DNA from: a bacterium
GTDB lineage: Bacteria > UBA8248
NCBI GenBank assembly: GCA_965202625.1
Contig: CBDBBI010000010.1
Location: 1,019,050 to 1,083,049, forward strand
Direction: 5' to 3'
Length of the DNA: 64,000 nucleotides
The stretch's first letter is position 1; every line of letters starts with the position of its first letter. Below are positions 10,237 through 61,438 of this stretch, piece by piece. Under the pieces are notes generated by a model, which saw nothing but the letters and a program-made list of their open reading frames with translations, searched no databases and was not told the DNA's origin. The position numbers and the translations under genes were made by a program.

Positions 10237-10291
10237 GACCACAAGTTTAGGCGTCACCTCAGCTCAAACAGACAAAATTCGCAGGAGAGCC

Positions 10292-32505: not shown

Positions 32506-33519
32506 ATGAAGTGGCGCAAAATAGAAGGAAAAATAGCGCATACAGTTATGAGAGCGGGATTTTTCCTCAAGAGATTTCCGTTTATTATTCTCCTCTTTAC
32601 GACTGGCTGCGCCACGGTTGCTCCTTCCACCACTCCGGTGGAAGCTCCCGTATCTAGGGCCGCCCAGAAAAAAGCGCAACAAAAGGCTCTCACTCCCCAG
32701 AGAAAGATACTCAAGCGCAAAATCGCGATTGGCCGCTTCACCAACGAGACGCGTTACGGCAAGACTTTCTTGCGAGACGGGGACACCGACCCTTTAGGAA
32801 AGCAAGCTTCCGACATGCTCGCCAATCGCCTCGTAAGTTCCGGGAAATTTCTGGTTTTTGAGCGTCCGGACCTTGTGAAAATCAAGCGCGAACAAAGCGT
32901 CCTAAAAAAATCCAACCTGATCGGCGTGGACGTCCTTATCTTGGGGTCGGTGACGGAGTTCGGTCGCTCCACCACGGGCCAGTCCGGCTTCTTGAGTGCG
33001 ACGAAAAAGCAGACTGCGCAGGCGAAGGTCGAAATACGTATGGTGGACGTACGGACGGGGCACGTGTTTTTCTCCGCCTCCGGCTCAGGAGAGGCAAGTA
33101 CCGAATCGGGGGAAGTCGCCGGCTTCGGCAGTCGGGCGGGCTACGACGCCACGCTGAATGACAAGGCGATTGGCGCCGCCATATCCGACTTCCTGAATTC
33201 CCTTATCTCGAAAATCGATGAGAGAATTTGGAGAACGGACATCCTGCGAATCAAGGGAAGCGAGATCATCATCACTGGCGGCAGACGGCAGGGGATTCAG
33301 ATCGGTGACGTATTAAACGTGATGAGAGAAGGAGAACGGGTGAAGAGCAGGCAAACTGGCTTTGAAATTTCGCTTCCCCCTTCAAAGGTCGGCGAAATAC
33401 GGATTGTCAGCCTTTTTGGAGATACCGAAACCAATGAAGGGTCAGTGGGCACAATCTTGTCGGGAACGTTTCCTGGAAGTCGGACGGATGGACTCTTCGT
33501 TTCAGAGATAAGGAAATAA
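32506..33519 (+). CDS. CsgG-family (curli-type assembly/transport) lipoprotein
   Basis: A lipobox LFTTGC is followed by the CsgG core (KIAIGRFTNETRYG...DMLANRLVSSGKFLVFER). Confidence 0.7.
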   Translation: MKWRKIEGKIAHTVMRAGFFLKRFPFIILLFTTGCATVAPSTTPVEAPVSRAAQKKAQQKALTPQRKILKRKIAIGRFTNETRYGKTFLRDGDTDPLGKQASDMLANRLVSSGKFLVFERPDLVKIKREQSVLKKSNLIGVDVLILGSVTEFGRSTTGQSGFLSATKKQTAQAKVEIRMVDVRTGHVFFSASGSGEASTESGEVAGFGSRAGYDATLNDKAIGAAISDFLNSLISKIDERIWRTDILRIKGSEIIITGGRRQGIQIGDVLNVMREGERVKSRQTGFEISLPPSKVGEIRIVSLFGDTETNEGSVGTILSGTFPGSRTDGLFVSEIRK

Positions 33520-33524
33520 TTTCG

Positions 33525-33854
33525 ATGAAATTATTTGTTGCGGGCTTTCTGCTCATGCTCCTCACCGTTGGTTGCTATCCATCAAGCGAGGTTCGGGTGA
33601 CGGACAGTAGACCGAGGCTAGCCATCAAGAACGCCCCAAAGAACGCCATCATCTATGTCGATGGGCTGAATTTGGGATTCGCGAACCAATATAGCGGAGA
33701 CCAGTCGAGTGACGAGAGTGGAGAGGTGCGCGTCCTTTTGTTAGAGCCGGGAAGGCACCTGATTGAGGTGAAGAGCGACGGCGAAACATTGCTTTCCGAG
33801 GATGTTTTCCTTGGAGAAGGCACACTGAAAACGCTGACAGTGAAACAGGAGTGA
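33525..33854 (+). CDS. small lipoprotein with PEGA-like beta-sandwich
   Basis: A lipobox LTVGC is followed by IIYVDGLNLG...GRHLIEVKSDG. Confidence 0.5.
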   Translation: MKLFVAGFLLMLLTVGCYPSSEVRVTDSRPRLAIKNAPKNAIIYVDGLNLGFANQYSGDQSSDESGEVRVLLLEPGRHLIEVKSDGETLLSEDVFLGEGTLKTLTVKQE

Positions 33855-33864
33855 GTAAAACGAA

Positions 33865-34239
33865 ATGATCACCAAAAGATTGTCCGTCCTGCTCGTCTCC
33901 ATCCTGATTTCAGCTTGCGCGCAGACAAAATACCATTGGGGCGGGTACGAAAACGCTTTATATCAATACTATAAAAGTCCAGCGGAGCTTGGGAGTCTCG
34001 CGAAAGAGTTAAGAGGTGCAATCACCCAGGGGGAACAGGATGAGAAAGTTCCGCCCGGCCTTTATGCCGAGCTCGGTTATGTGCTCCTCGTCCAAGGAAA
34101 GAAGCAGGAAGCCGTCACTTACTTTCAAAAAGAAAAGAAATTATGGCCTGAATCAGCCAAATTGATGGATACGATGGTTAAAATGGCGAAAACCTCCGGA
34201 GGCGTGAAATCTGCTGGCTCCAAGGGAGAAAATCGATAA
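33865..34239 (+). CDS. DUF4810-family lipoprotein
   Basis: A lipobox ISAC is followed by YHWGGYENALYQYY...VPPGLYAELGYVLL. Confidence 0.55.
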   Translation: MITKRLSVLLVSILISACAQTKYHWGGYENALYQYYKSPAELGSLAKELRGAITQGEQDEKVPPGLYAELGYVLLVQGKKQEAVTYFQKEKKLWPESAKLMDTMVKMAKTSGGVKSAGSKGENR

Positions 34240-34908
34240 ATGCTATCAAAAACATTCGCATCAGGAGTTCTTGTTACGATATTGCTCGTCTCAGGTTGCG
34301 CTGCTCGCCCAAAACCATCGGATTTCACCAAATTCCGCAACGAAAATCCCAGATCGATTCTGGTCGTGCCTGCCATCAACAAGGCCGTTGAAGTCAACGC
34401 TCCAGATTATTTTCTTTCAACTATCTCGAAGCCTGTCGCTGAAAGAGGATTTTACGTATTTCCCGTGAACGTAGTGAAACGTGTAATGGAAGACGATGGT
34501 CTCGCTGATGCGAATTTGGTTCACAATGCCGACCCGAAACGCTTGGGAGAGATATTTGACGCCGATGCCATTCTTTACGTCTCGATAGATAGATGGGACG
34601 CGCAATATATTGTGTTCTCCACCCAGGTGACGGTGGAATTCACTTATGTTCTCAAGAGCGGTCGCACCGGCGAAGAGCTGTGGCGACGAACGGCAAAAAT
34701 GGTGTATTCGCCTCAAAGCAGCACGAATACGGGCAACCCTCTTGCCACTCTCATCATAATGGCGGCCCAGGCAGCTATTACGAAAGCGGCGCCGAACTAT
34801 ATCCCCTTGACCCAACAAGCCAACTTTTTAGCAGTCATTGAACCCGGACAAGGATTGCCCGCAGGCCCTTATCGAAAAGATTATCTGAAAGATCAGGACA
34901 AATTCTGA
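34240..34908 (+). CDS. DUF799-family lipoprotein (GNA1162-like)
   Basis: The start is adjacent to the previous stop (TAAATG). A lipobox LVSGC is followed by ILVVPAINKAVEVNAPDYF, which is typical of DUF799. Confidence 0.6.
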   Translation: MLSKTFASGVLVTILLVSGCAARPKPSDFTKFRNENPRSILVVPAINKAVEVNAPDYFLSTISKPVAERGFYVFPVNVVKRVMEDDGLADANLVHNADPKRLGEIFDADAILYVSIDRWDAQYIVFSTQVTVEFTYVLKSGRTGEELWRRTAKMVYSPQSSTNTGNPLATLIIMAAQAAITKAAPNYIPLTQQANFLAVIEPGQGLPAGPYRKDYLKDQDKF

Positions 34909-35306: not shown

Positions 35307-36056
35307 TCATGCAGACCGCCTCGTCTGCTCTGCTGAAATATCCATAATACCCTGAGATTTCAATACCTCATCTCTGAGGACTACGCCTACAACGTCCAAG
35401 ACCTGCTTTAACGCAATGCCATTATTATAGGCGGACATTTGCATTGCTTCCCGTGGTATTTTTTCCGTTAAATCATCAAGGAGATTTTCTTGGGCATACG
35501 CAAAGCACATCTCCTGTATTTCGTAGGCATTCTTGTCTTTACCGCTTATTTGTTCCTTTAATGCTTCTGCATATCCCGAAATCCATTCGTTGATTTGTAT
35601 TTCTTCAGCAACCCTTTCCCCCAGTTCGCTGAGCCTGCGCGGGCTATCGGATTCCGTTGTTTCGGGAGGGGGCAATCGCGAAAAAATAGATTTTATGTCT
35701 GCTCGTATTTCCTTTACCTCATTTTTGATTTCGCTTCGTATTGCATTTGTTTCATTTTTGATTTCCGCTCGTATTGCATTTGTTTCATTTCTGATTTCGC
35801 TTCGTATTGCATTTGTTTCATTTCTGATTTCATCTCGTATTTCTTTTGTTTCATTGCTGATTTCATCTCGTATTTCTTTTATCTGATCTCGAATTTCTCC
35901 CATAAATGTCGATATGCTCTCTCCCTTTTCGTTTACTTTTGCAATCCATGTTGCAGCGCGTATTGCAGCCCATATTGCAAGAGCAAAGAGGACGACAATA
36001 ATGAGTAATATATTTCCTTTGAAGGCTTCAAGGAGAAATACGTTGATGGAGCTCAT
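35307..36056 (-). CDS. membrane-anchored protein containing about six tandem 11-aa repeats (NETNAIRSEIR-type coiled-coil)
   Basis: The 249-aa protein has an N-terminal TM helix, then the repeat block EIRDEIRNETNAIRSEIRNETNAIRAEIKNETNAIRSEIKNEVKEIRADIK. The gene's GC content is about 45%, against about 62% for the genome. Confidence 0.6.
   Translation of the reverse strand: MSSINVFLLEAFKGNILLIIVVLFALAIWAAIRAATWIAKVNEKGESISTFMGEIRDQIKEIRDEISNETKEIRDEIRNETNAIRSEIRNETNAIRAEIKNETNAIRSEIKNEVKEIRADIKSIFSRLPPPETTESDSPRRLSELGERVAEEIQINEWISGYAEALKEQISGKDKNAYEIQEMCFAYAQENLLDDLTEKIPREAMQMSAYNNGIALKQVLDVVGVVLRDEVLKSQGIMDISAEQTRRSA
35694..35895. repeat. 33-bp tandem repeat (about 5.5 copies) inside the gene above
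   Basis: Successive copies read gatttcgcttcgtattgcatttgtttcattttt, gatttccgctcgtattgcatttgtttcatttct, gatttcgcttcgtattgcatttgtttcatttct, gatttcatctcgtatttcttttgtttcattgct and further degenerating units. Confidence 0.75.
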
Positions 36057-37210: not shown

Positions 37211-37250
37211 GCCGGCCCCTGCTGATGCGGGGCCGGCTTTTGTTTTTGTG
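37211..37250 (+). terminator. rho-independent terminator after the OMP gene
   Basis: A GC hairpin ggccggcccc-tgctgatg-cggggccggc is followed by ttttgtttttgtg. Confidence 0.6.
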
Positions 37251-37341
37251 CTCGTTGCCCAAGGGAGTCGCCAACCCCAAAAACACCCAGCGGGCACAGG
37301 AATTGCTCGGCAGCGGGGGCCGGGGAGGCAGCTGGCTTTGC

Positions 37342-38103
37342 TTAAGAGGTGAGGAGAGATTTCTCCTGAATGGTTCTTGATGGGTTGATTCCAAACGCTT
37401 GAGGCATTTCAGTCCACGTTCTGCCATCCAGCGTTCGACCCGTCTTTTTCTTGAATACGCCGCCCCATTGCTTGAAGAAAAAAGGCGTGCCGCTGCCCAC
37501 GCAATTATCCCGAATCTCTCGCGCCCAGTCCGGCTCCATGGGCCTTGCGCCCGGACCGCTTTCGCCGCCGACGATGACCCAGTCAATGCCGTCCAGATCC
37601 AGACTCGGCAAGGGTTCAAGCAGCGGCTCAAGAGAGAGAAACTTCGTTCGGGCACCCGTTTGCCGGAGCAGGCGCGCCCGGTTCAGAAAATCCGCAGACT
37701 CAATGCTCGTCCCCAGCCAGATGTTCGGCGTCCAGCGAAGCCGCCGGCTCCACCGGACAGCGCGTCCCGGCCGCTTCGTGAGCACCTGAAACGTGTGCTG
37801 GGTCGCGCGGTTCATCACCCCGAACACGGCCTCAAGGAAGTCCAGCGGCACCGCTCGGTGAAACAGATCGCTCATAGAGTTCACGAAAACAAGGCGCGGC
37901 TTGCGCCACTTCAGAGGCTCTTCCAGAATGGATGGGTGGGTTCTGAGCGAAAAGCCGTCCGCGTACTTGCGGGTCCCCATCCCCTGGAGCCGCCTCGACA
38001 TCCGCGCAGCGTAACAATGCTTGCACCCGGGGCTGATCTTCGTGCAACCGGTAGTCGGGTTCCAGGTGATTTCCGTCCACTCTATGCCGGAAACTTTAGG
38101 CAT
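37342..38103 (-). CDS. phage Gp37/Gp68-family protein (DUF5131)
   Basis: Trimmed to MPKVSGIEWTEITWNPTTGCTKISPGCKHCYAARM, the family's three-Cys N-terminus. The upstream gene's stop lies 2 nt before this ATG. Confidence 0.8.
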   Translation of the reverse strand: MPKVSGIEWTEITWNPTTGCTKISPGCKHCYAARMSRRLQGMGTRKYADGFSLRTHPSILEEPLKWRKPRLVFVNSMSDLFHRAVPLDFLEAVFGVMNRATQHTFQVLTKRPGRAVRWSRRLRWTPNIWLGTSIESADFLNRARLLRQTGARTKFLSLEPLLEPLPSLDLDGIDWVIVGGESGPGARPMEPDWAREIRDNCVGSGTPFFFKQWGGVFKKKTGRTLDGRTWTEMPQAFGINPSRTIQEKSLLTS

Positions 38104-38105
38104 GG

Positions 38106-38846
38106 CTAAATGTGACCCAGAATGTGGCCTGCAATCCGAGTAGCTGGAGCAATTCCCCTGGGGTGGCCTACGCAAAACATAAATTCAAATAGCGCCGAAT
38201 TCTTGGAGTTTTTAAGAGTTCGGGATTTTTCGAGAAACCTGTCTCTAAATAAGCACTTAAGATTTCTTTTGTATATGGAGGTCAGGCCCCCGACGCCAGA
38301 GTCTCTCTCATAATGAAGACCTCCAAATAGATCAGTGTTTTCCTGATACAGGCCTCTCCATCTCTCATCACCGAATACTTTTGTGAGTCGCTCAGCCCAC
38401 TTTGGCTCAACTTCCTCGGGCATTCTTGATTTCGGCAACATCCTAGCAACAGCGGACGTAGGGAAGAGAATCCAGGTATCGAGCACCTTAAGGTTGGCTA
38501 TCTTTTCAATAGTCGCCCATGCAACTTCCGTGGCGAAGCGCCGCTTCGCCGCCGCGTCCGCCGCGCAAAACCCGCTGTCGTGGGCCTCCGAGGTTGCCAC
38601 AATGTGTTCAATGTCCGTCTGGTGCCTGCTGGAAAACGTCCGCCCGGTGTATGGCCCATACGTCCGGCCCCCAAGACCGGCAACGATGCGGGCCTCAAGA
38701 GATTGCGAATACGGATAGTCGCGCCGCTTGTCGTAGGGTGCGCACCGGTGCTCGGGTGCGACCACGAGGCCGCGCCAGGTGTCAGCGGCCCACATGGTTG
38801 CGGGAGTGAGCGCAACGAGAGCGAAAACGAATATACACAAAATCAC
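38106..38846 (-). CDS. secreted DUF1524/HNH-like nuclease-family protein with an uncharacterised C-terminal half
   Basis: The ORF has a GTG start and a signal peptide. The N-terminal half (...HRCAPYDKRRDYPYS...GPYTGRTFSSRHQTDIEHIVATSEAHDSGF) matches the C..PYD / PYTG / DI(D/E)H(V/I)V pattern of DUF1524. It is translationally coupled to the Gp37/Gp68 gene. Confidence 0.45.
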   Translation of the reverse strand: MILCIFVFALVALTPATMWAADTWRGLVVAPEHRCAPYDKRRDYPYSQSLEARIVAGLGGRTYGPYTGRTFSSRHQTDIEHIVATSEAHDSGFCAADAAAKRRFATEVAWATIEKIANLKVLDTWILFPTSAVARMLPKSRMPEEVEPKWAERLTKVFGDERWRGLYQENTDLFGGLHYERDSGVGGLTSIYKRNLKCLFRDRFLEKSRTLKNSKNSALFEFMFCVGHPRGIAPATRIAGHILGHI

Positions 38847-38876
38847 CCTTCATCCACCCCCTTGGTGCCGACCGCC

Positions 38877-39197
38877 TTAACGGTTTCCCTCTTTGCATCG
38901 AACGCGGTAATAGATTCGGCTGCCCGCAGCGCCGAGGTTATATTCCCGAATCACTTTCCGCTCGAAAATCTCGTATCCACCGGGGCACAAGTCGTTGTCA
39001 GTGAGGTAGAGCTTGAGCCTCGATAGTCTGTTGGATTCAGCGGAGGAGCTGTCATGCGGAGTGAGCGGGCCAGCTACCGCCTCGTACTGAAACGTCCCGT
39101 CGGACAATGGCCTGAATCTGGTATCGAATATAGTGTCGTGCGCAGAACAACCCATTAATGCCAGGAACGCAAAAACGGCCAGGCCTTTCGCAAACAT
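38877..39197 (-). CDS. small lipoprotein, copy 1 of a tandemly duplicated pair
   Basis: The start MFAKGLAVFAFLALMGCSAHD is preceded by GGAGGAGG. The protein is about 70% identical to copy 2 and has conserved Cys (DLCPGGYE, RVRCKEGNR). Confidence 0.55.
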   Translation of the reverse strand: MFAKGLAVFAFLALMGCSAHDTIFDTRFRPLSDGTFQYEAVAGPLTPHDSSSAESNRLSRLKLYLTDNDLCPGGYEIFERKVIREYNLGAAGSRIYYRVRCKEGNR

Positions 39198-39255
39198 CGG
39201 CTCCTCCTCCCTCAAAAAGTCCGCGCCATCCAGCACACCTCTCCCAAAACCTCCG

Positions 39256-39335
39256 CACCGCGCGGAGGCGGGATGGGCTCCCACGCCGGATGATCGCTCT
39301 CCAGAATCCACCGCCCCTCCACCCACACCGCGCGC
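39256..39335 (-). pseudogene. orphan fragment of the 3' end of the S24 repressor gene (copy a)
   Basis: The 80 bp are near-identical to 39756-39835 inside the intact repressor gene and would encode ...WVEGRWILESDHPAWEPIPPPR. The fragment is part of a ~485-bp tandem duplication unit. Confidence 0.6.
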
Positions 39336-39363
39336 GGCCACAGCGAACAGGCTGCAGACCGCC

Positions 39364-39690
39364 TTAACGGTTTCCCTCTTTGCATCGAACGCGGTAATGG
39401 ATTCTGTGGGCCAAAGCGTCGGAGCCATATTCCCGAATCGCTATCCGCTCGAAAACCTCGTATCCACCGGGGCACAAGTCGTTGTCAGTGAGGTAGAGCT
39501 TGAGCCTCAATAGTCTGTTGGCTTCAGCGGAGGCACTCTTCGGCGGATAGAACGGGCCAGCTACCGCCTCGTACTCAAACGTCCCGTCGGACAATGGCTT
39601 GAATCTGTGATCGTATCCAGTGATGCGCGCAGTAGTACAACCCATTAATGCCAGGAACGCAAAAACGGCCAGGCCTTTCGCAAACATCAT
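39364..39690 (-). CDS. small lipoprotein, copy 2 of a tandemly duplicated pair
   Basis: The start MMFAKGLAVFAFLALMGCTTARI is preceded by GGAGGAGG. The gene lies directly 3' of the repressor gene on the same strand. Confidence 0.55.
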   Translation of the reverse strand: MMFAKGLAVFAFLALMGCTTARITGYDHRFKPLSDGTFEYEAVAGPFYPPKSASAEANRLLRLKLYLTDNDLCPGGYEVFERIAIREYGSDALAHRIHYRVRCKEGNR

Positions 39691-39701
39691 CTCCTCCTCC
39701 C

Positions 39702-40478
39702 TCAAAAAGTCCGCGCCATCCAGCACACCTCTCCCAACACCTCCGCCCCGCGCGGAGGCGGGATGGGCTCCCACGCCGGATGATCGCTCTCCAGAATCCA
39801 CCGCCCGTCCACCCACACCGCGCGCTTGACCAGCAAGCCATCCTCGCCGCGCACCACGAATATCCGTCCGCTGTGCAGGTGCTTTTTTTTCATGTCAATG
39901 AGAATGGAGCAACCCGCCGGCAGCGTCGGCTCCATGGATTCGCCCGCCACGCGGATGATGCGGCACTGGGCGGCCTCCAGCCCTTGCTCCCTCAGCCACT
40001 CCGCGCGAAACGCCAGACGTCCCGCCACCGTCTCGCTGTCCGCCTCCGCACCGCCTCCCGCCGCCGCGTCCACCTCCACGATTTCCACGTGACGGAAATG
40101 GAAAGCGTCCGTATTTCCGGCGGCCTCCGATTCTGCCGCGTCGCGCAATTTGTCCAGGGTACCGGCCGCATCGCGCAAGCGGGAGAGCTCCGCATCGAAA
40201 GCCTCCTCCAGCATTCGCTTCGCCGAGCCCTCCTGGAGTGCCGCCGCCCCTGATGCATCGGGCACCCCTGATGCACCGGGTGGGGCGACGAGAGGAAATT
40301 CAATGCCCAGAGCTTCGCAAATCTGGGCGGCGCGCCCGATAGAAGGTTGCTGTCCGTCCAGGATTCCCTGGAAACTTCGCACAGGAATCCCCGCACGCAT
40401 TGCCGCCGCGCGTACGGACTCACCATTCCTTGCGAGGTGATCACGAACATCTTTCACAAACCGTTCCCTTACTCCCAT
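39702..40478 (-). CDS. XRE-family HTH repressor with C-terminal S24 (LexA/cI-type) peptidase domain
   Basis: Trimmed to MGVRERFVKDVRDHLARNGESVRAAAMRAGIPVRSFQGIL, which contains the HTH. The C-terminus ...RVAGESMEPTLPAGCSILID...LLVKRAVWVDGRWILESDHPAWEPI is the S24 Ser/Lys fold. Confidence 0.8.
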   Translation of the reverse strand: MGVRERFVKDVRDHLARNGESVRAAAMRAGIPVRSFQGILDGQQPSIGRAAQICEALGIEFPLVAPPGASGVPDASGAAALQEGSAKRMLEEAFDAELSRLRDAAGTLDKLRDAAESEAAGNTDAFHFRHVEIVEVDAAAGGGAEADSETVAGRLAFRAEWLREQGLEAAQCRIIRVAGESMEPTLPAGCSILIDMKKKHLHSGRIFVVRGEDGLLVKRAVWVDGRWILESDHPAWEPIPPPRGAEVLGEVCWMARTF

Positions 40479-40575
40479 GTGGCAATGTATAGCATATTGT
40501 GCCCCCAAATTGCCATTGGCATTATAATGCAAATATGGGCTTGACATCTTGGCGTAATAAAGCCATATTGGCCTT
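40479..40575. promoter_or_regulatory. divergent intergenic control region between the cI-like repressor and the cro-like gene, with candidate operator palindromes
   Basis: Palindromes tgccattggca (40511-40521) and gccatattggc (40562-40572) are present. Plus-strand hexamers TTGACA (40543-40548) and TATAAT (40523-40528) are also present. The region is AT-richer than its flanks. Confidence 0.35.
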
Positions 40576-40824
40576 ATGACGCCAAACCAGATCATCCACC
40601 TTATAGACGTCATGGCCGAGGCGACCGCCCGAAGCCCGCACACGCTCGCCCGCTACGCTGCCGGCTCCGGAGATTTCTACGCGCGCCTGAAGGTTGGACA
40701 CGACATCACGACCCGCCGCGCCGCGCGCGTCGTTCAATGGTTCTCCGATCAATGGCCCTCCGACCTGGAGTGGCCGTCGGACGTTCCCCGCCCTGTGCCG
40801 AAAGCGAAGGAGAGTGCCGCGTGA
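40576..40824 (+). CDS. small hypothetical protein divergent from the repressor (cro-like position)
   Basis: The ORF is 82 aa. The true start may be the internal ATG at 40612. Its stop overlaps the GTG of the next ORF (GTGA). Confidence 0.35.
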   Translation: MTPNQIIHLIDVMAEATARSPHTLARYAAGSGDFYARLKVGHDITTRRAARVVQWFSDQWPSDLEWPSDVPRPVPKAKESAA

Positions 40825-41579
40825 GCGGGTGCGATCTGCGGGTGATAACGGAGGAATCCCCCCCCGTTTCGCCGGCGAAACAGGCACACGAAGCGCCGCG
40901 GCCCCTCTTTCATGAAGGGCTTGGGCGGGATCGCTGGGCGGAGATCGGGCGCGATCTTTCCCACTGGGCGGAGAACACGCAATGGGAAATGGGAGAATGG
41001 GCTCTGTTTGGGGAGGCGTCTTTTGGCGAGAGGACGCTGCGGGAGGTGGCGTCCGGTCTGAAAATCAGCGCGGGCAAACTGTCCAACTGCCGACTGGTCG
41101 CCAAGAATTTCCCCGCGTTTCGCCGGCGAAACGCCTTGAGTTTTTCTCACCATCTCGAAGTGGCGCGCCTGCCGCAAGCGGAGGGCGACGAAATTCTCGC
41201 CCGCGCCGAGGCGGATGGATGGACGCGAGAGCAGATTCGGAAGGAAGCGCGCGAAGCGCGGGCGGCGGTGCTGGCGTGCCTGGTGCGCGAGAACGAGGCG
41301 CTTCGCGCGGAGAATGCGCGGCTCAAAACCACGCCGGCGGCGGCGAAGGATGCGGCGCGCGACCTGGAGAGACGCGCGAAGGCCGCCGCCCGAAAGGTGA
41401 GCGCGGCGTTTGCGGACCTCGCGCGGGTACTGGGCGAGGCGGGTGCATCGGCGGAAATCACAGGTTTGCACGGCAACGCGCGCGCGGCACTCGACGCGCG
41501 CCTGAAACGCATCGTGTGCTCGGCTGGAAGGGATGCGGCCGGCGTGCAGATGCGCTTCACTTTCGGGGCGGGCGAATGA
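40821..41579 (+). CDS. hypothetical protein with coiled-coil C-terminal half
   Basis: The ORF is 253 aa from the GTG at 40821 and has typical high-GC codon usage. Its stop overlaps the next ATG (ATGA). The longer track ORFs 40737 and 40982 are N-terminally over-extended. Confidence 0.4.
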   Translation: MSGCDLRVITEESPPVSPAKQAHEAPRPLFHEGLGRDRWAEIGRDLSHWAENTQWEMGEWALFGEASFGERTLREVASGLKISAGKLSNCRLVAKNFPAFRRRNALSFSHHLEVARLPQAEGDEILARAEADGWTREQIRKEAREARAAVLACLVRENEALRAENARLKTTPAAAKDAARDLERRAKAAARKVSAAFADLARVLGEAGASAEITGLHGNARAALDARLKRIVCSAGRDAAGVQMRFTFGAGE

Positions 41580-42235
41580 ATCCCCACGCCCGTGAAACCG
41601 CCCAGCAACCCTCTTTCATCGCCCTGGAAACGCCCGAAAAACTCCCTTGCAACGACCTGGAAACCGCCTGGAACGCCGCCACGGACGCCCAGAAAGAGCG
41701 CGCCGTCAAGCGGCTGCGTGCGGTCGAGCGTTCCGAGGCTTTGGCGGCGGAGGGGATAGTGCGCGCGGAGGCGGACGGAATAGCGGCACTTGAATGCGGC
41801 GCGTCCAAATCCGCCGTCGCCACCTGGCGGCGTCGCGCACGAGGTGCGGGGCGGGGAGATAGACTGCGCACGCTTCTTGACGCACCGGGGCGCGGACGGC
41901 CGCGTGCAGAATGGACGGGCACGGCGGCGGAGACGCTCTGGACGCTGTGGCGCACGGACTGGCTCCGAGAGGAAGCACCGGATGCGGCGGCGGCACATCG
42001 GCGGGTGGAGGCGGTCGCCCAGGCGCGGGGCTGGGAATGTCCGCCCCTCCAGGCGTTCACCCGCAGGGTGCGGCGCGAGGTTTCCCGCCGCGAAGTCGTA
42101 CGCGCGCGCAAGGGTGCCCTCGCCGCCATGAACACCTCGCCCCACCAGACGCGAAGCGTGGAGGCGGGATGGGCTCCCACGCCGGATGATCGCTCTCCAG
42201 AATCCACCGCCCCTCCACCCACACCGCGCGCTTGA
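41576..42235 (+). CDS. hypothetical protein whose C-terminus is read through an antisense copy of the repressor 3' end
   Basis: The ORF is 220 aa from the ATG at 41576 and shares a frame with the tail of track ORF 40982..42235. The last ~25 codons lie inside repeat copy c, so the gene may be 3'-truncated or fused. Confidence 0.35.
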   Translation: MNPHARETAQQPSFIALETPEKLPCNDLETAWNAATDAQKERAVKRLRAVERSEALAAEGIVRAEADGIAALECGASKSAVATWRRRARGAGRGDRLRTLLDAPGRGRPRAEWTGTAAETLWTLWRTDWLREEAPDAAAAHRRVEAVAQARGWECPPLQAFTRRVRREVSRREVVRARKGALAAMNTSPHQTRSVEAGWAPTPDDRSPESTAPPPTPRA

Positions 42236-42247
42236 CCAGCAAGCCAT
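42158..42247. repeat. third copy (c) of the S24-repressor 3'-end repeat, abutting the right boundary of the inserted element
   Basis: The sequence gaggcgggatgggctcccacgccggatgatcgctctccagaatccaccgcccctccacccacaccgcgcgcttgaccagcaagccatc matches 39756-39842. Confidence 0.65.
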
Positions 42248-42302
42248 CTCGGTAGAGGCACACGTCGGCTTTTGTTCTTGTTCAATAGTCGAAGTCCCTC
42301 CT

Positions 42303-44198
42303 CTACTTCCCCGGATAGCCCAGGCCGGCGAGGGTCTCGGCGATCTCGGGCAGGATGGCCGGGTCGTCAATGGTGGCAGGTGCCTTGTATTCCTCGCCGT
42401 CGGCGATGCGCGACATCGTTCCCCGTAAAATTTTGCCCGAGCGCGTCTTGGGCAGGCGCTTCACCACTGCCGCCTGACGGAATGCGGCCACGGCGCCGAT
42501 CTGGCGGCGCACGAGCTGCACCACCTCGCCGACGACCTCCGCATCCTCCCTCTCAACGCCCGACGTCAAGACCAGAAAACCGAGGGGAAGCTGGCCCTTG
42601 AGCTGATCCTTCACTCCGATGACGGCACACTCCGCCACGTCGGGATGCGAGGTCAACACCTCCTCCATCGCGCCCGTGGAGAGCCTGTGGCCCGCCACGT
42701 TGATGATGTCGTCCGTCCTCGACATCACATAGACGTAGCCCTCCTCGTCCACGTAGCCGGCATCGCCCGTTTTGTAGAAGCCCGGATATTCGCTCAGATA
42801 GGAATCGACAAAACGCGCGTCCGCGTTCCAGAGGGTGGGGAGACAACCGGGCGGCAGGGGCAGTTTGACGCACAGCGCGCCCATCTCGCCCGCACCCAGT
42901 GCGCGGCACTCGCTGTCGAGAACCCGAAAATCGTAGCCGGGAACGGGCTTCGTGGGGGAGCCGTATTTGACGGGCAGATGCTCGATTCCGATGGAGTTCG
43001 CCAGCATCGGCCAGCCGCTCTCCGTCTGCCAATAGTGGTCGATGACGGGAACCCCCAGCTTATCCTCCGCCCACTGCACCGTGTCCGGGTCGGATCGCTC
43101 CCCCGCCAGAAAAAGGGTGCGGAAACAGCCGAGGTCGTAATTTCGCATGAGTTCAGCGTCCGGATCATCGCGCTTGATAGCGCGAAACGCCGTGGGCGCC
43201 GTGAACAAAACCTTCACCCCATGCTCGGAGATGACGCGCCAGAAAGCGCCTGCGTCGGGCGTGCCCACGGGCTTGCCCTCAAACAGGATGGTCGCGCAGC
43301 CGTGGAGCAGCGGCGCATACACGATGTAGGAATGCCCCACCACCCAGCCTACGTCGGACGCCGCCCAGAACACCTCGCCCGGCGCCACGCCATACACGTT
43401 TCGCATCGACCACTTGAGCGCCACCATGTGGCCGCCGTTGTCTCGAACCACCCCCTTGGGCTGTCCCGTCGTGCCCGAGGTGTAGAGGATATAAAGGGGG
43501 TCCGTGGCGGCGACGGGAACACAGGCCGCAGGCATCGCGCCCCGCAGCGCATCGCCCCATTCGACGTCGCGGCCCTCGATGAGCTCCGCCTCCGCCTGGG
43601 CGCGCTGCAGGATGACGCACTTCTCCGGCTTCACGCTCGAGAGGTTGATCGCCTCATCGAGCAGGGGCTTGTAGGCGATGACGCCCGAGGGTTCCACTCC
43701 GCACGAGGCGGATATCATGAGTTTCGGCTTTGCGTCCTCGATCCGCGCCGCCAGCTCGTTCGGTGCGAACCCGCCGAAGACGACCGAGTGCACCGCGCCG
43801 ATGCGCGCGCAGGCGAGCATGGAGATCGCCGCCTCGGGTACCATCGGCATGTAGATGATGACGCAGTCGCCCTTCTCCACCCCCAGGGATTTGAGCGCGC
43901 CCGCGAAATGCGCCACCTCGCGCAGCAACTCCCCATAGGTGAACTTTCGGGCAGGCGCACCCGTGATGGGGGTGTCGTATATCAGGGCGAGTTGATCCGC
44001 GCGTCCCGCCTCGACGTGACGATCCAGTGCGTTGTAGCAGGTGTTGACCTCGCCTCCTGCGAACCAGCGATAGAAAGGAGGGCGGGAATCATCCAGCACC
44101 CTCTCCCATCTCTTGTGCCAGTGCACGTCCTCCGCCGCCTCCGCCCAGAACGCCTCCGCGTCCAAGAGAGAGCGGGCGTGAACCTCTGCGTAGCCCAT
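42303..44198 (-). CDS. prpE: propionate--CoA ligase / acetyl-CoA synthetase family (AMP-forming)
   Basis: The 631-aa protein has an N-terminus like PrpE (EAFWAEAAEDVHWHKRWERVLDDSRPPFYRWFAGGEVNTCYNALDRHV), the AMP-binding motif YTSGTTGQPKGV and the C-terminus RLPKTRSGKILR. Confidence 0.85.
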   Translation of the reverse strand: MGYAEVHARSLLDAEAFWAEAAEDVHWHKRWERVLDDSRPPFYRWFAGGEVNTCYNALDRHVEAGRADQLALIYDTPITGAPARKFTYGELLREVAHFAGALKSLGVEKGDCVIIYMPMVPEAAISMLACARIGAVHSVVFGGFAPNELAARIEDAKPKLMISASCGVEPSGVIAYKPLLDEAINLSSVKPEKCVILQRAQAEAELIEGRDVEWGDALRGAMPAACVPVAATDPLYILYTSGTTGQPKGVVRDNGGHMVALKWSMRNVYGVAPGEVFWAASDVGWVVGHSYIVYAPLLHGCATILFEGKPVGTPDAGAFWRVISEHGVKVLFTAPTAFRAIKRDDPDAELMRNYDLGCFRTLFLAGERSDPDTVQWAEDKLGVPVIDHYWQTESGWPMLANSIGIEHLPVKYGSPTKPVPGYDFRVLDSECRALGAGEMGALCVKLPLPPGCLPTLWNADARFVDSYLSEYPGFYKTGDAGYVDEEGYVYVMSRTDDIINVAGHRLSTGAMEEVLTSHPDVAECAVIGVKDQLKGQLPLGFLVLTSGVEREDAEVVGEVVQLVRRQIGAVAAFRQAAVVKRLPKTRSGKILRGTMSRIADGEEYKAPATIDDPAILPEIAETLAGLGYPGK

Positions 44199-58528: not shown

Positions 58529-59475
58529 ATGAACCGCCTGTTTTATGGGGACAATCTTCAGATTATGGGAGAATTGCCTCCAAATAGCGTTGACCTCATC
58601 TATTTAGACCCGCCATTCAACTCGAACAAAAACTACAACCTCATGTATCGGGACATGGTGGGCCGTCCCGTTTCGGAACAAATAGAGGCGTTCTGCGACA
58701 CATGGGAAATGGACGCCGAGAAGGAAGAGATCGCCCGGAAAATGCCGGTCCCTTATGCGAGAACAAGGGATCGAGGATTACTACGTCGATTTCTGGCGGC
58801 TCTGGATCAAGGCTTTGCGGCACACCCAGCCGCGCCCTCGCCTATCTCTCCTACATGTCGGAACGGCTTGCCGAGGCGCGCCGCCTCCTCAAGCCCACAG
58901 GCTCCATCTACCTGCATTGCGACCCGACCATGAGCCATTATCTGAAGGCGGTGATGGATGACGTTTTCGGCGTCAAGAATTTTAGAAACGAGATTATTTG
59001 GAGCGGCATTCCGCACGACCTCTCCAGTGCGCGGAAGCTCGCGCAGGACAAACCCTTCGACTTCGAGAAATGGGCGATTTGCCGAATCCCCGGGCTCGCG
59101 CCAAACGCCAGGCAGGTGGGCGACGGGGGAATCGACGGACGTGGCCTGCTTTTGAACGCGCCCGACGATCACGATTCCCGCCTGGTACTGGCACAAGTCA
59201 AGGGTGGAAAATTCCAGGCGAGCGGGTTGCGGGATTTTCTGGGCGTCATGGAAAGGGATCGCGCCGCCATGGGCGTATTCATCACCCTGAACAGCGCGAC
59301 CTCTCCCCATGCGCACACCGAAGCGGGGCGAAAGGGAAGCATCCGCATGGGCGCGTCTCAATATCCGCGCGCGCAATTATGGTCGATAGACGATCATTTC
59401 AGAAAGAATCAGCCGCACATGCCGCCCCTCGCCGACCCTTACACGGGCAAGGAAATGCAGCAGCCCCTGTTTTGA
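58529..59475 (+). pseudogene. N6/N4 DNA methyltransferase (PF01555-type, DPPF...TGSIYLHCD) fused to an Mrr-like PD-(D/E)xK endonuclease domain, frameshifted
   Basis: Frame A reads MNRLFYGDNLQIMGELPPNSVDLIYLDPPFN...AFCDTWEM. Frame B (ORF 58702..59475) reads ...ALAYLSYMSERLAEARRLLKPTGSIYLHCDPTMSHYLKAVMDDVFGVKNFRNEIIW...VGDGGIDGRGLL...LAQVKGGK. At least one frameshift lies near 58740-58790. Confidence 0.6.
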
Positions 59476-59494
59476 CAATACGAAGGGAGATGAC

Positions 59495-59761
59495 GTGATA
59501 TGGTTCGCGGAATTTATCGATTCAAGCGGAAAGTTCGTCGCGTTCGGCGATGATCCCGAAGAGATGCCCGTCCACAAGGAACAGCGGAACGGCGGCCTCT
59601 ATCCGACGCCCATGACCTTCCCCTCGTGTCTGAAGTTTCTCTGGGGAGCGGATGAGGTGGCGCTGCCCCGCAAGGTCACCGAGCAGGAAATCCTGAATCG
59701 CTTCGCCGATCCCGATCATGAAGAAGACTGGGAGCGCGAACTGCGGCGCCGAACGACCTGA
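59495..59761 (+). CDS. small hypothetical protein (MTFPSCLKFL family), paralog of 61004..61204
   Basis: The 88-aa protein starts MIWFAEFIDSSGKFVAFGDD and contains MTFPSCLKFLWGADE, shared with the paralog at 61004..61204. Confidence 0.4.
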   Translation: MIWFAEFIDSSGKFVAFGDDPEEMPVHKEQRNGGLYPTPMTFPSCLKFLWGADEVALPRKVTEQEILNRFADPDHEEDWERELRRRTT

Positions 59762-60007
59762 CGTTCTCGCCAACGGGGACTTTCCCGATTCTTTGGCGCG
59801 CTATCTGACGCCGCATTCCCTTGCCCAGCGCTGGACGTTCCCAGATCGCCCTCCGTTGTCTGGCGCACTATCTGACGCCTCTGACGCCATCACCTCGCGC
59901 TGGCCATGCTTCGCGCCTGTCCGTTATTTCCTTGGGAAATTTTGTTGATTTGTCGCCAATCGGATAGCGTTGGATTCGCCGTTTTCGCGTTGACGCAAGG
60001 CGCGGTT

Positions 60008-60302
60008 CCGAAATCCAAGACCTTCTGATGCGAAAACGGCCGACTCCCCGGAGGGGAGCCGGCCGCCTTAAGCCGCTCTTATCGCCGCTGACCGCCCACT
60101 TCCTCCATCATGCCCCACTTGACGACGGTCACCCTCTCGAACTTCTCAAAAATGAATTTCTCCATCACGAATCCCACCAAAGCGATGGCCGCGATTCCCA
60201 CGAGCATGAAAGCCGTATCCAGATCTTCACGGCTGTCGAATATGGCGTATCCCAAGCCCCAATCACTCGCGGCCACCATCTCTCCGGCGATGCCCGCGCG
60301 CC
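60008..60302. repeat. displaced direct-repeat copy of the 3' end plus downstream hairpin of the ABC permease gene (native copy 61366-61662)
   Basis: About 295 bp are near-identical to the native copy and encode the ...AASDWGLGYAIFDSREDLDTAF...MMEEVGGQRR C-terminus (track ORF 60079..60279). Confidence 0.75.
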
Positions 60303-60457
60303 GAAGCGGGACAAAAGGGGAACATCCGCATGGGCGCGTCCCAATATCCGCGCGCGCAATTATGGTCGATAGACGATCATTTCAGAAAGAATCAGCCGCA
60401 CATGCCGCCCCTCGCCGACCCTTACACGGGCAAGGAAATGCAGCAGCCTCTATTTTG
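60303..60457. repeat. second copy of the methyltransferase-Mrr gene 3' end (native copy 59321-59475), fused directly to the permease-3' repeat
   Basis: The sequence gaagcggg...catccgcatgggcgcgtc.caatatccgcgcgcgcaattatggtcgatagacgatcatttcagaaagaatcagccgcacatgccgcccctcgccgacccttacacgggcaaggaaatgcagcagcc is repeated. Confidence 0.75.
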
Positions 60458-60544
60458 AGCTGACGCGCTGGCGGGGCGCGGATGGCGGGACAACGCGCTG
60501 ATGCGCGGGCTTTATTCGCACTTTTAATATGTGATACAAGCAAA

Positions 60545-60578
60545 GGGCTCCGGGTAGAGACCGGAGCCCTTTTGATTT
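60545..60578 (+). terminator. rho-independent terminator
   Basis: A hairpin gggctccgg-gtagaga-ccggagccc is followed by ttttgattt. Confidence 0.55.
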
Positions 60579-60680
60579 GCCCGTTCGCTTGCTGACAAGG
60601 TCGCTCACGGGATATGACCGCTGCCCCCAACATATCCTTTGCAAAGCGAACCTGTCAACTTCATGGGAGGGGTTCGCTTT

Positions 60681-60950
60681 ATGGACGAGAAGACGCTTCT
60701 TTGCCGCGTTTGCAAGATCGAGCCGAAACGCGTCGAAGAGGAAGGAAAGCCTGATCTGATACGTTGTCCCCGGTGCGGCGCATTCGGTAATTTTGATGAA
60801 GTCCTTGAAGCGGCTTCCAGGCATTTGACAGGCAGCATCATAAACGACGGGTTCAATCGCCGCGCGCGTAAATCCAGGAGATCGAAGGTTATGCGCTACG
60901 TCCTCGGCAATCGCAAAAATATCACTGCCCCCGCTTTCATCTTTCAATGA
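60681..60950 (+). CDS. small zinc-ribbon protein (CxxC...CxxC)
   Basis: The 89-aa protein reads MDEKTLLCRVCKIEPKRVEEEGKPDLIRCPRCGAF and has a basic C-terminus. The GGAGGGG RBS is upstream. Confidence 0.4.
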   Translation: MDEKTLLCRVCKIEPKRVEEEGKPDLIRCPRCGAFGNFDEVLEAASRHLTGSIINDGFNRRARKSRRSKVMRYVLGNRKNITAPAFIFQ

Positions 60951-61003
60951 TGATTCCTCCTTGACGCGCGCTAGACGATCTCCCGACCGAAGCGTTTCCT
61001 GAT

Positions 61004-61204
61004 CTATTTCGCCGTCGTCTTGGCGGCATCGGTGATGTCGTCCGCACCGTGCAGGAATTTGAGGCAGGAAGGGAACGTCATCTCCGTTCTGGAATAGTCG
61101 GGACCGCCGCCGACGCCCAGGCTGTAGACGGGCAGGACGTTCCTGTTTTCTCCAAACGCGATGAATTTATGGTCGCCGTCCGTGAATTGCACCAGATAGA
61201 TCAT
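61004..61204 (-). CDS. small hypothetical protein (MTFPSCLKFL family), paralog of 59495..59761 in opposite orientation
   Basis: The 66-aa protein reads MIYLVQFTDGDHKFIAFGEN...MTFPSCLKFLHGADD. Confidence 0.4.
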   Translation of the reverse strand: MIYLVQFTDGDHKFIAFGENRNVLPVYSLGVGGGPDYSRTEMTFPSCLKFLHGADDITDAAKTTAK

Positions 61205-61438
61205 TCGTATTTCTCCAAAATGGACTTATTGAACACGTCGGCGGCGAAGTTGGCGTTTTCCGCGCGGGAAACGCCCGACGGATTCATGGCGATTTCGGAG
61301 ACGAGGGAGAACTTGATGGGACTTAGGGGATCTGCACCAAAGCGTCGAGGGCCAGGGGGCGCAGTTCCGAAATCCAAGACCTTCTGATGCGAAAACGGCC
61401 GACTCCCCGGGAGGGGAGCCGGCCGCCTTAAGCCGCTC

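What the first reader, a model, noticed from the sequence alone, without database searches (positions are those of the whole stretch)
38862..39842. Tandem ~485-bp duplication of [repressor 3' end + small lipoprotein gene] downstream of a cI/LexA-like repressor; candidate superinfection-exclusion lipoproteins
Unit 1 (about 38862-39357) and unit 2 (about 39358-39842) are collinear and about 85-90% identical. Each contains a ~108-aa lipoprotein gene with a GGAGGAGG RBS (MFAKGLAVFAFLALMGC...DLCPGGYE...RVRCKEGNR).

Each unit also holds the last ~80 bp of the S24 repressor gene. In unit 2 that segment is the real gene end. In unit 1 (39256-39335) it is an orphan fragment.

Small lipoproteins directly downstream of a prophage repressor are the usual location of superinfection-exclusion or lysogenic-conversion genes.

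The two copies have already diverged. Their N-terminal mature regions differ (SAHDTIFDTRFRP versus TTARITGYDHRFKP).
Basis: seen in the sequence. Interest (0 to 1): 0.5.

Follow-up and report, generated by a model that had tools for sequence, protein, structure and literature searches.

The report
Duplicated, fast-evolving prophage lipoprotein genes
A decayed Mu-like prophage has recently duplicated a small lipoprotein gene sitting just after its repressor gene; the two copies are diverging under positive selection and belong to an unnamed phage lipoprotein family that most likely blocks infection by other phages.

Summary
Unit 1 (38866-39335) and unit 2 (39353-39825) are tandem copies separated by 17 nt of filler. 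Each holds the last 124 nt of an S24 repressor gene (an orphan fragment in unit 1), a GGAGGAGGAG ribosome-binding site and a 106/107-aa lipoprotein gene.

- The element is a 5-kb remnant of a Mu-like transposable prophage: c repressor, ner-like gene and a MuA-like transposase cut at codon 193. It is bracketed by an 18-nt direct repeat.
- A third orphan copy of the repressor 3' end lies at 42156-42248.
- The duplication is young (dS 0.034; upstream DNA 3.6% different), yet amino-acid changes are 4.6 times faster (34.5 non-synonymous versus 2.5 synonymous differences). They fall in three patches, and both copies changed.
- The proteins belong to an uncharacterised family of about 100-aa lipoproteins, with 293 clusters and no Pfam, NCBIfam or PHROG model.
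- Of 20 loci (19 plus the window), the gene directly follows a repressor-type gene in 5 and sits in the tail module in 7. Only the window has a tandem pair.
- A candidate defence pair (PADLOC PDC-M41) follows on the same strand.

The superinfection-exclusion function is inferred from context, not shown.

The parts
37234..37251 (+). Left copy of an 18-nt imperfect direct repeat (CGGCTTTTGTTTTTGTGC). It is the T-tail of the terminator hairpin of the upstream OMP gene and probably marks the left edge of the island.
   Evidence: The pattern occurs only twice in the window, against 0.01 expected. Sequence read.
37342..38103 (-). DUF5131 gene, matching PADLOC PDC-M41B. It is the last gene of the minus-strand gene string.
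   Evidence: Pfam DUF5131 at 3e-98. PADLOC PDC-M41B at 7.5e-112.
38106..38846 (-). 246-aa protein with an N-terminal signal-like segment. Its C-terminal half matches PADLOC PDC-M41A. The gene starts 30 nt after the Lp1 stop codon.
   Evidence: PADLOC at 1.2e-27; no Pfam hit; ORF.
38866..39335 (-). Repeat unit 1: Lp1 gene, RBS and orphan repressor 3' fragment.
38877..39197 (-). Lp1, a 106-aa lipoprotein gene (MFAKGLAVFAFLALMG|C...).
   Evidence: ORF and translation. Family HMM at 6.7e-36. AF2 model with pLDDT 84.7.
39212..39335 (-). Orphan copy 1 of the last 124 nt (41 codons plus stop) of the repressor gene. It has no upstream part of the gene.
39336..39352 (.). 17-nt filler at the duplication junction.
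   Evidence: The 21-nt stretch 39336-39356 that contains it is unique in the window.
39353..39825 (-). Repeat unit 2: Lp2 gene, RBS and the real 3' end of the repressor gene.
39364..39687 (-). Lp2, a 107-aa lipoprotein gene. Its start codon lies 14 nt after the repressor stop codon.
39702..40478 (-). Intact 258-aa repressor, with an N-terminal HTH-like region and a Peptidase_S24 domain. It is related to the c repressors of Mu-like phages.
   Evidence: Pfam S24 at 2e-14. phrog_4 repressor. tblastn hits to the c repressors of D3112, RcapMu and MuM16-1.
40541..40569 (+). Sigma-70-like promoter (TTGACA-17-CATATT) facing the early genes.
   Evidence: Consensus scan only.
40576..40824 (+). ner/cro-position early gene, 82 aa.
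   Evidence: phrog_7669 at 1e-25. 44% identical to the equivalent gene of a Ruegeria Mu-like prophage.
40737..41579 (+). Early gene X (longest ORF shown; the likely start is the GTG at 40821, overlapping the ner stop codon).
   Evidence: ORF. 41% identical to a gene in Ruegeria locus L001. No Pfam hit.
41576..42155 (+). N-terminal 193 codons of a MuA-like transposase, truncated where it meets repressor-fragment copy 3.
   Evidence: Pfam HTH_Tnp_Mu_2 at 5.5e-15. phrog_310 transposase. Junction read.
42156..42248 (-). Orphan copy 3 of the repressor 3' region: 93 nt, 98% identical to the real gene, and lacking the last 48 nt of the gene.
42266..42283 (+). Right copy of the 18-nt direct repeat (CGGCTTTTGTTCTTGTTC), 20 nt before the stop codon of the acyl-CoA synthetase gene (42303-44198, minus strand).

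Best explanation
Shown. A 5-kb island (about 37252-42265) is the remnant of a Mu-like transposable prophage. It keeps an intact c-type S24 repressor. Downstream on the same strand, with gaps of 14, 166, 30 and about 2 nt, it carries Lp2, Lp1 and a candidate two-gene defence pair (PDC-M41A and B). A 470-nt unit, made of the last 124 nt of the repressor gene plus the RBS plus the lipoprotein gene, was duplicated in tandem by illegitimate recombination, leaving 17 nt of filler. The duplication is recent: neutral divergence is about 3.5%. Since then both copies have accumulated amino-acid replacements about 4.6 times faster than synonymous changes. The replacements fall in three patches, while the signal peptide, the lipobox, two further cysteines and all family-invariant residues stayed intact.

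Inferred. Both genes are transcribed from the repressor promoter in the 'lysogen'. Their products are lipid-anchored, disulfide-bonded periplasmic or outer-membrane proteins with a beta-beta-alpha-beta-beta fold. They act as superinfection-exclusion factors. The most likely mechanism is binding and disabling an envelope component that related phages need for adsorption or DNA entry, as T5 Llp, Cor and Rtp45 do. The duplication followed by diversifying selection gives the host two specificities in an arms race with incoming phages.
For: - Structure of the duplication.
- Mu-like identity. The slot downstream of c carries variable cargo in RcapMu and RcWaterboi.
- Lipoprotein nature: the sequence fits the PROSITE-type lipobox. 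Cys17 is invariant in a 46-member alignment, and 137 of 152 family sequences have a lipobox.
- Real, folded protein family: 293 clusters at E<1e-3 and an AF2 model at pLDDT 84.7.
- Positive selection: 34.5 non-synonymous vs 2.5 synonymous differences, omega 4.6, dS 0.034, against 5/138 differences in upstream DNA. Bootstrap gives pN<=pS in 0.1% of replicates, and 4 of fewer than 5000 random-mutation simulations reach the observed value. Fisher p is 0.004-0.02.
- Both lineages changed: 9 and 8 unique replacements, plus 8 sites where all three close relatives differ. Changes sit at family-variable columns (p=0.019).
- Accessory-gene (moron) behaviour in 19 other loci. The gene lies directly after a co-oriented repressor-type gene in L004, L017, L020 and L027. 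It lies between or beside NlpC/P60, GpJ or tape-measure tail genes in L002, L003, L012, L015, L021, L023 and L025, four times on the opposite strand.
- Defence-type neighbours on the same strand.
- Literature: small lipoproteins of T5 and Rtp (Llp, Rtp45) block the receptor (PMC9586334, PMC12685063). Lipoprotein genes inside the structural cluster of mEpimmI phages exclude phages according to receptor type (PMC11893012).
Against: - No experiment and no homology to any characterised exclusion protein. Pfam, NCBIfam, PHROGs and PADLOC give nothing for the lipoproteins.
- Expression is inferred from gene spacing only. A weak hairpin precedes each RBS.
- The dN/dS test rests on one pair of sequences with 37 differences. 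Clustered multi-nucleotide changes could partly reflect gene conversion from unseen alleles.
- The tail genes and receptor of this phage are unknown, because the remnant has lost them.
- Eight of the 20 family contexts are uninformative.
Confidence: 0.55

Rival explanations
1. Lysogenic-conversion lipoprotein with a host-directed role other than phage exclusion. Examples would be envelope stress tolerance, serum or predator resistance, adhesion, or metal or redox handling in the periplasm, in the manner of lambda Bor. The duplication and diversification would then reflect selection by a non-phage antagonist.
For: The gene is prophage-expressed by position. The product is a small exported disulfide protein. 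The closest fold is the periplasmic metalloprotein FPM13 (PMC13028475).
Confidence: 0.2
2. Periplasmic inhibitor ('immunity protein') of the NlpC/P60 cell-wall peptidase carried by siphophage tail tips. It would block cell-wall penetration by incoming phages, or protect the producer from its own tail peptidase.
For: In L002, L012 and L015 the gene directly follows an NlpC/P60 gene on the same strand. In L003 and L025 it sits at the same K|J junction.
Against: In the other 15 of 20 loci, including the window, no NlpC/P60 gene is adjacent. No similarity to known peptidase-immunity families was found.
Confidence: 0.08
3. Functionless by-product: a local rearrangement in a decaying prophage, with one or both copies drifting towards pseudogenes.
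For: The island is heavily rearranged. It has a truncated transposase, three copies of the repressor 3' end and a filler junction.
Against: Both ORFs, their start codons, RBS, signal peptides, cysteines and family-invariant residues are intact. Neutral decay predicts omega near 1 and scattered changes. Observed omega is 4.6 with changes in three patches.
Confidence: 0.06
4. Two-cassette variation system. The near-identical flanks (192 nt upstream at 97% identity, and the conserved 3' end) would serve as homology arms for gene conversion between the copies, shuffling the variable patches.
For: The layout is conserved flanks around a variable core.
Against: There are only two copies, both with full expression signals. 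No recombinase or extra silent cassettes are present in the window. No evidence of mosaic exchange.
Confidence: 0.04
5. Virion or tail-assembly protein occupying the gpI position between K and J.
For: K-Lp-J order with overlapping stop and start codons in L002 and L012.
Against: The lipoprotein signal peptide is invariant. The gene occurs on the opposite strand inside tail operons, and alone behind repressors. No Pfam Lambda_tail_I hit.
Confidence: 0.02

Closest known systems
T5 Llp, Cor (phi80/N15/T1) and Rtp45: receptor-blocking superinfection-exclusion lipoproteins of siphophages
   Same: All are small phage-encoded outer-membrane or periplasmic lipoproteins. Their genes are linked to the receptor-binding protein gene, as in 7 of 20 family loci here. 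An arms-race type of evolution is expected for them. (PMC9586334, PMC12685063, bioRxiv 10.64898/2026.03.26.714494; the location of Cor is from my own knowledge.)
   Different: There is no detectable sequence or profile similarity: PHROGs gave 0 hits for 46 family members and Pfam none. None of these proteins appears among the fold-search hits. The target is unknown. In the window the gene is in the repressor operon, and no tail genes remain.
Ltp of Streptococcus thermophilus phage TP-J34 (exclusion lipoprotein of the lysogeny module)
   Same: A lipoprotein gene placed in the lysogeny module and expressed from the prophage along with the immunity functions (PMC3952083).
   Different: Ltp belongs to a Gram-positive host and an unrelated sequence family, and blocks DNA injection. 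No homology was found.
Lpp021 and Lpp010 of the mEpimmI coliphages
   Same: Lipobox-bearing small proteins encoded inside the structural gene cluster. Allelic types track receptor use, and exclusion has been shown experimentally (PMC11893012).
   Different: A different sequence family. Those are single-copy genes, not placed behind the repressor.
Cargo slot at the left end of Mu-like phages (for example RcapMu genes 2-5, RcWaterboi gene 2)
   Same: Variable hypothetical genes lie between the c repressor and the left end, on the repressor strand. The repressors are related.
   Different: Those cargo genes are not family members. Here the prophage is a 5-kb remnant, and the cargo includes a tandem pair plus a PDC-M41 candidate defence pair.
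Lambda Bor / Iss lysogenic-conversion lipoprotein
   Same: A prophage-expressed lipoprotein of about 100 aa.
   Different: No Pfam Lambda_Bor match. A different predicted function.

Membership tests
Bacterial lipoproteins (Lgt/LspA-processed) | N-terminal signal peptide ending in a lipobox with an invariant Cys | tested here: met
   MFAK-GLAVFAFLAL-MG|C fits the PROSITE-type pattern. The Cys is invariant in 46 aligned members. 137 of 152 family sequences have a lipobox.
Bacterial lipoproteins (Lgt/LspA-processed) | Actual lipidation and membrane anchoring | not testable with these tools
   Needs globomycin sensitivity, palmitate labelling or fractionation.
Receptor-blocking exclusion lipoproteins (Llp / Cor / Rtp45) | Sequence or profile homology to a characterised member | tested here: not met
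   PHROGs: 0 families for Lp1, Lp2 and 44 relatives. Pfam and NCBIfam: none. PDB profile search: nothing.
Receptor-blocking exclusion lipoproteins (Llp / Cor / Rtp45) | Gene genetically linked to the receptor-binding or tail-tip gene | tested here: inconclusive
   Met in 7 of 20 family loci. Cannot be assessed in the window, because the tail genes are deleted.
Receptor-blocking exclusion lipoproteins (Llp / Cor / Rtp45) | Binds the phage receptor and prevents adsorption or DNA entry | not testable with these tools
   Requires infection assays and binding studies.
Lysogeny-module exclusion genes (Ltp-like arrangement) | Located in the immunity region and co-oriented with, or adjacent to, the repressor gene | tested here: met
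   Window: 14-nt gap between the repressor stop and the Lp2 start. Same arrangement in L004 (16 nt), L017 (overlap), L020 and L027.
Mu-like transposable phage | c-type repressor divergent from an early operon encoding a MuA-type transposase | tested here: met
   Repressor related to the c repressors of D3112, RcapMu and MuM16-1. HTH_Tnp_Mu_2 domain and phrog_310 transposase.
Mu-like transposable phage | Complete transposase (DDE core), B ATPase, structural genes and TG...CA ends with a 5-bp target duplication | tested here: not met
   The transposase stops at codon 193. An acyl-CoA synthetase gene follows. The flanks carry an 18-nt, not a 5-bp, direct repeat. It is therefore a remnant, not a functional phage.
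Diversity-generating retroelement target | Differences confined to adenine positions of one repeat, and a reverse transcriptase nearby | tested here: not met
   The 37 differences involve all four bases evenly (A 11, C 10, T 9, G 7). No Pfam hit to a reverse transcriptase among the island ORFs scanned.
PADLOC candidate defence system PDC-M41 (neighbouring genes) | Adjacent A and B components | tested here: met
   38106-38846 matches PDC-M41A at 1.2e-27 (C-terminal half only). 37342-38103 matches PDC-M41B at 7.5e-112. The system itself is only a candidate.

The most novel reading that the evidence does not exclude
The roughly 300-cluster family is a new class of phage-encoded envelope lipoprotein that neutralises the tail tip of incoming siphophages. 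It could, for example, inhibit the tail-borne NlpC/P60 peptidase or bind the J protein in the periplasm, rather than masking a receptor. The window would then capture this class in the act of specificity expansion through tandem duplication and positive selection inside a domesticated repressor operon.
Probability: 0.12. Interest if true: 0.7.

Novelty: new member of a known kind. Interest (0 to 1): 0.42.

Why it matters
If the function is confirmed, this names and places a widespread but unannotated phage lipoprotein family: 293 clusters and no Pfam, PHROG or NCBIfam model. Phages insert it repeatedly at two classic accessory-gene positions, behind the repressor and next to the receptor-binding tail genes.

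The window offers a clean natural experiment. A duplication with about 3.5% neutral divergence shows a 4.6-fold excess of amino-acid change confined to three patches. That pinpoints the likely specificity-determining surface and gives two ready-made alleles to test.

It also illustrates how a 5-kb prophage stump can be kept as a host defence cassette: repressor immunity, exclusion lipoproteins and a candidate defence pair.

Tried and rejected
**Searches that led nowhere**
- Close relatives. Only three proteins exist in 5.8 billion: the gene itself, its paralogue, and P0003 at 73% identity.
  - The DNA of P0003 could not be fetched. So I could not check copy number in the second genome or run a three-sequence codon test.
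  - The window's own genome is not in the position index, so the organism was not identified.
- Both genome-contig scans gave nothing useful: none for the lipoprotein, and one distant Ruegeria Mu-like prophage without the lipoprotein for the repressor.
- Cultured phages. tblastn of P0001, P0004 and P0015 against 50,697 phage records gave no significant hit.
- The MuA fragment has no tblastn match in cultured phages.
- One literature search was wasted because min_terms was set too low.

**Ideas considered and rejected**
- DGR-type mutagenesis: no adenine bias and no reverse transcriptase.
- Rz1-type spanin: wrong location, and the protein is a folded 89-aa domain.
- gpI-like assembly protein: it carries a lipoprotein signal and occurs on the opposite strand.
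- Assembly artefact: the copies differ by 8%, and the sequence lies on a 2.9-Mb contig.
- A second Mu insertion as the source of the repeats: the three repressor fragments overlap by 76 nt instead of abutting with a 5-bp duplication.
Full report
**1. The observation**

The region was read directly and analysed with repeat finding and MAFFT. Two collinear units lie head to tail. Unit 1 is 38866-39335 and unit 2 is 39353-39825, separated by 17 nt (39336-39352); the 21-nt stretch 39336-39356 that contains this filler occurs nowhere else in the window.

Identity is uneven. The 280 nt covering most of the lipoprotein coding sequence are 87% identical. The 192 nt covering the signal peptide, the RBS and the repressor-derived segment are 97% identical.

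Each unit carries, on the minus strand, an intact ORF. Lp1 is 38877-39197 (106 aa) and Lp2 is 39364-39687 (107 aa). Both are preceded by GAGGGAGGAGGAG and begin MFAKGLAVFAFLALMGC.

Each unit also contains the last 124 nt of the repressor gene. In unit 2 this is the true 3' end of the 258-aa gene at 39702-40478. In unit 1 it is an orphan (39212-39335).

**2. The surroundings: a Mu-like prophage stump**

- The repressor has a Peptidase_S24 domain, matches the PHROG repressor family phrog_4, and is most similar to the c repressors of transposable phages such as D3112, RcapMu and Shewanella MuM16-1.
- Divergent from it lie a promoter-like site, an 82-aa ner-position gene (phrog_7669) and a gene X. 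Both have relatives in a Ruegeria Mu-like prophage.
- Next come the first 193 codons of a MuA-type transposase (Pfam HTH_Tnp_Mu_2, phrog_310).
- At 42155/42156 the transposase gene is cut and joined to a third copy of the repressor 3' region. This copy is 42156-42248, 93 nt long and 98% identical to the real gene.
- Fifty-four nucleotides further on, an acyl-CoA synthetase gene ends.
- Copies 1 and 3 share a base (giving VEGRW) that the real gene has changed (VDGRW). All three therefore derive from one ancestor, and the functional gene has since changed.
- An 18-nt imperfect direct repeat, CGGCTTTTGTTYTTGTKC, occurs only at 37234-37251 and 42266-42283, against 0.01 expected. It brackets the whole block. 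The left copy is the T-tail of the terminator of the neighbouring OMP gene.

The element is thus a 5.0-kb island that has lost nearly all phage functions.

The origin of copy 3 is inferred. The simplest history is a 2.4-kb tandem duplication from inside the repressor 3' end to transposase codon 193, followed by a deletion that removed the second copy and the rest of the prophage. The 18-nt repeat is not what Mu-type transposition leaves (5 bp), and it remains unexplained.

**3. The gene string**

On the minus strand the order is repressor, Lp2, Lp1, a 246-aa protein, then a DUF5131 protein. The gaps are 14, 166, 30 and about 2 nt. No convincing terminator lies between them; the scan found only a weak six-pair hairpin before each RBS, no better than shuffled sequence.

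The last two genes match the two components of the PADLOC candidate defence system PDC-M41, at 1.2e-27 and 7.5e-112.

In RcapMu and RcWaterboi, the space between the left end and c likewise holds variable hypothetical genes on the c strand. The lipoprotein genes therefore sit in a known cargo slot. In this island that slot is filled with defence-type genes. Co-transcription with the repressor is inferred from spacing only.

**4. The proteins**

Word-indexed search of 5.8 billion proteins found only the two paralogues and one 73%-identical protein from another contig. A full HMMER profile search of 1.84 billion cluster representatives found 293 hits at E<1e-3, and 40 at E<1e-10. Nearly all are 95-125 aa long.

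Family features:
- A 46-member alignment has invariant Cys17 (lipobox), Glu54, Arg57, Leu61, Cys71, Arg80, Tyr97 and Cys101.
- 137 of 152 sequences have a PROSITE-type lipobox.
- No Pfam, NCBIfam or PHROG model matches any tested member, and no PADLOC model matches Lp1 or Lp2.
- No PDB sequence is related.

With the 46-sequence alignment AlphaFold2 gives a confident model, with mean pLDDT 84.7 and the core above 92. It has a flexible tether, then beta-beta-alpha-beta-beta. The two conserved cysteines lie at the start of strand 3 and the end of strand 4, which is consistent with a disulfide (inference).

**5. Evolution of the pair**

A Nei-Gojobori count gives 34.5 non-synonymous and 2.5 synonymous differences. 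That corresponds to dN 0.157, dS 0.034 and omega 4.6. The 138 nt upstream differ at 5 positions (3.6%), which matches dS.

Tests of omega greater than 1:
- Codon bootstrap gives pN<=pS in 0.1% of replicates.
- Random placement of 37 mutations gives so few synonymous changes in 4 of fewer than 5000 trials.
- Fisher tests give p between 0.004 and 0.02.

The signal peptide is identical in both copies. Changes cluster at aa 18-29, 44-52 and 79-95. The third close relative varies at the same patches. Polarised with that relative, 9 changes are unique to Lp1, 8 are unique to Lp2, and at 8 sites all three differ. Both copies have therefore moved.

The changed sites fall in columns that are variable across the whole family (entropy 2.94 vs 2.28, p=0.019). 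There is no adenine bias, so DGR-type mutagenesis is excluded.

The simplest reading is a recent duplication followed by diversifying selection on exposed loops. A caveat applies: this is a single pair with 37 differences, and conversion from unseen alleles could contribute.

**6. Where phages keep this gene**

I collected 19 further loci through encoding-contig look-ups, IMG/VR and metagenome scans and a degenerate-motif scan. The motif scan's hits were checked with a family HMM, and 11 of 12 were true members. Neighbours were annotated with Pfam.

Directly downstream of a co-oriented repressor-type gene:
- L004: HTH_3 + S24, 16-nt gap.
- L017: HTH_19 + S24, stop and start codons overlap.
- L020 and L027: HTH_3 only.
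- The L004 repressor gave no tblastn match to the window's repressor, so the association is not simple shared descent of one module.

In tail modules:
- K-Lp-J order on one strand in L002, L012 and L015.
- On the opposite strand at the K|J junction in L003 and L025.
- On the opposite strand after the tape-measure gene in L021 and L023.

Other positions:
- Beside a terminase gene on the opposite strand (L019).
- Next to ParA and a ribbon-helix-helix gene (L009).
- In early-gene clusters (L007, L016, L022).
- Uninformative (L008, L024, and the contig carrying P0032).

No locus other than the window has two copies. This is the behaviour of an independently mobile accessory gene (a 'moron', PMC3594210). 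It is repeatedly recruited to the two positions where characterised exclusion lipoproteins are found. One is the lysogeny module, as with Ltp (PMC3952083). The other is the neighbourhood of the receptor-binding gene, as with Llp and Rtp45 (PMC9586334, PMC12685063) and with Lpp021 and Lpp010 (PMC11893012).

**7. Mechanism and rivals**

My best estimate is 0.55. In it, the proteins are prophage-expressed, lipid-anchored envelope proteins that exclude related phages. They probably do so by binding an envelope component needed for adsorption or DNA entry. The duplicated, positively selected pair widens the range of excluded phages.

Shown:
- the duplication and its age;
- intact genes and translation signals;
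- family membership and the predicted fold;
- omega greater than 1;
- the comparative gene contexts.

Inferred:
- transcription with the repressor;
- lipidation and outer-membrane location;
- the target and the exclusion phenotype.

Rivals:

| Rival | Confidence |
|---|---|
| Non-phage lysogenic-conversion role | 0.2 |
| Inhibitor of the tail-tip NlpC/P60 peptidase | 0.08 |
| Functionless by-product | 0.06 |
| Two-cassette variation system | 0.04 |
| Tail-assembly protein | 0.02 |

The peptidase-inhibitor idea is suggested by the K-Lp-J order, but the peptidase is not adjacent in the other 15 of 20 loci.

**8. Novelty and score**

By kind, this is a familiar thing: a prophage accessory lipoprotein in the immunity region. 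It is new in three respects:
- the protein family is widespread but unnamed;
- this is the only tandem pair among 20 loci (the window plus 19 others);
- the signal of positive selection in a very young duplicate is unusually clean.

I rate it a new member of a known kind, with interest 0.42. The function remains to be tested.

Noticed in passing
window 42156-42248: A third, orphan 93-nt copy of the repressor 3' region, 98% identical to the real gene. It is fused on one side to a MuA-like transposase gene cut at codon 193, and lies 54 nt from the acyl-CoA synthetase gene on the other side. It shares a base with orphan copy 1 that the functional gene has since changed.
   Followed up: partly
window 37234-37251 and 42266-42283: An 18-nt imperfect direct repeat (16 of 18 bases match) that occurs only twice in the window and brackets the whole 5-kb island. 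The left copy is the T-tail of the OMP gene terminator. It is not the 5-bp duplication expected of Mu-type transposition, and the island holds no integrase.
   Followed up: partly
window 37342-38846 (minus strand): The two genes directly downstream of Lp1 match the two components of the PADLOC candidate defence system PDC-M41. The 246-aa protein (C-terminal half only) matches component A, and the DUF5131 protein matches component B. A DUF5131 gene also lies downstream of the repressor-lipoprotein pair in viral contig L004, where it is 514 aa long with a large insertion.
   Followed up: partly
window 32506-34908: A four-gene lipoprotein cluster: CsgG-like, a 109-aa lipoprotein, DUF4810 and GNA1162-like. 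It lies in a lower-GC stretch (50-56%) just upstream of the island.
   Followed up: partly
window 35307-36056 (minus strand), repeats at 35691-35888: A 45% GC ORF encoding a membrane-anchored coiled-coil protein built from 11-residue (33-nt) tandem repeats (EIRxEIxNETNAIRS...). It gives weak matches to apolipoprotein-like and ZorA-like profiles.
   Followed up: no
window 59312-61662: Several long direct repeats: 257 nt at 99% identity spaced 1360 nt apart, 164 nt at 95% spaced 983 nt apart, and 58 nt at 95%. This suggests a second duplicated or repeated element near the end of the window.
   Followed up: no
L001 (Ruegeria atlantica NZ_WQCG01000005.1), 7113-10801: In a distantly related Mu-like prophage, the slot downstream of the repressor holds a reverse-transcriptase-like 581-aa gene and a 618-aa P-loop NTPase-like gene instead of a lipoprotein. 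I judged these by reading the translations, and did not check them against profiles.
   Followed up: no
L002, L003, L012, L015, L025: The junction between the NlpC/P60 (K-like) and J-like tail-tip genes of uncultivated siphophages is a recurrent insertion point for this lipoprotein gene, on either strand.
   Followed up: yes
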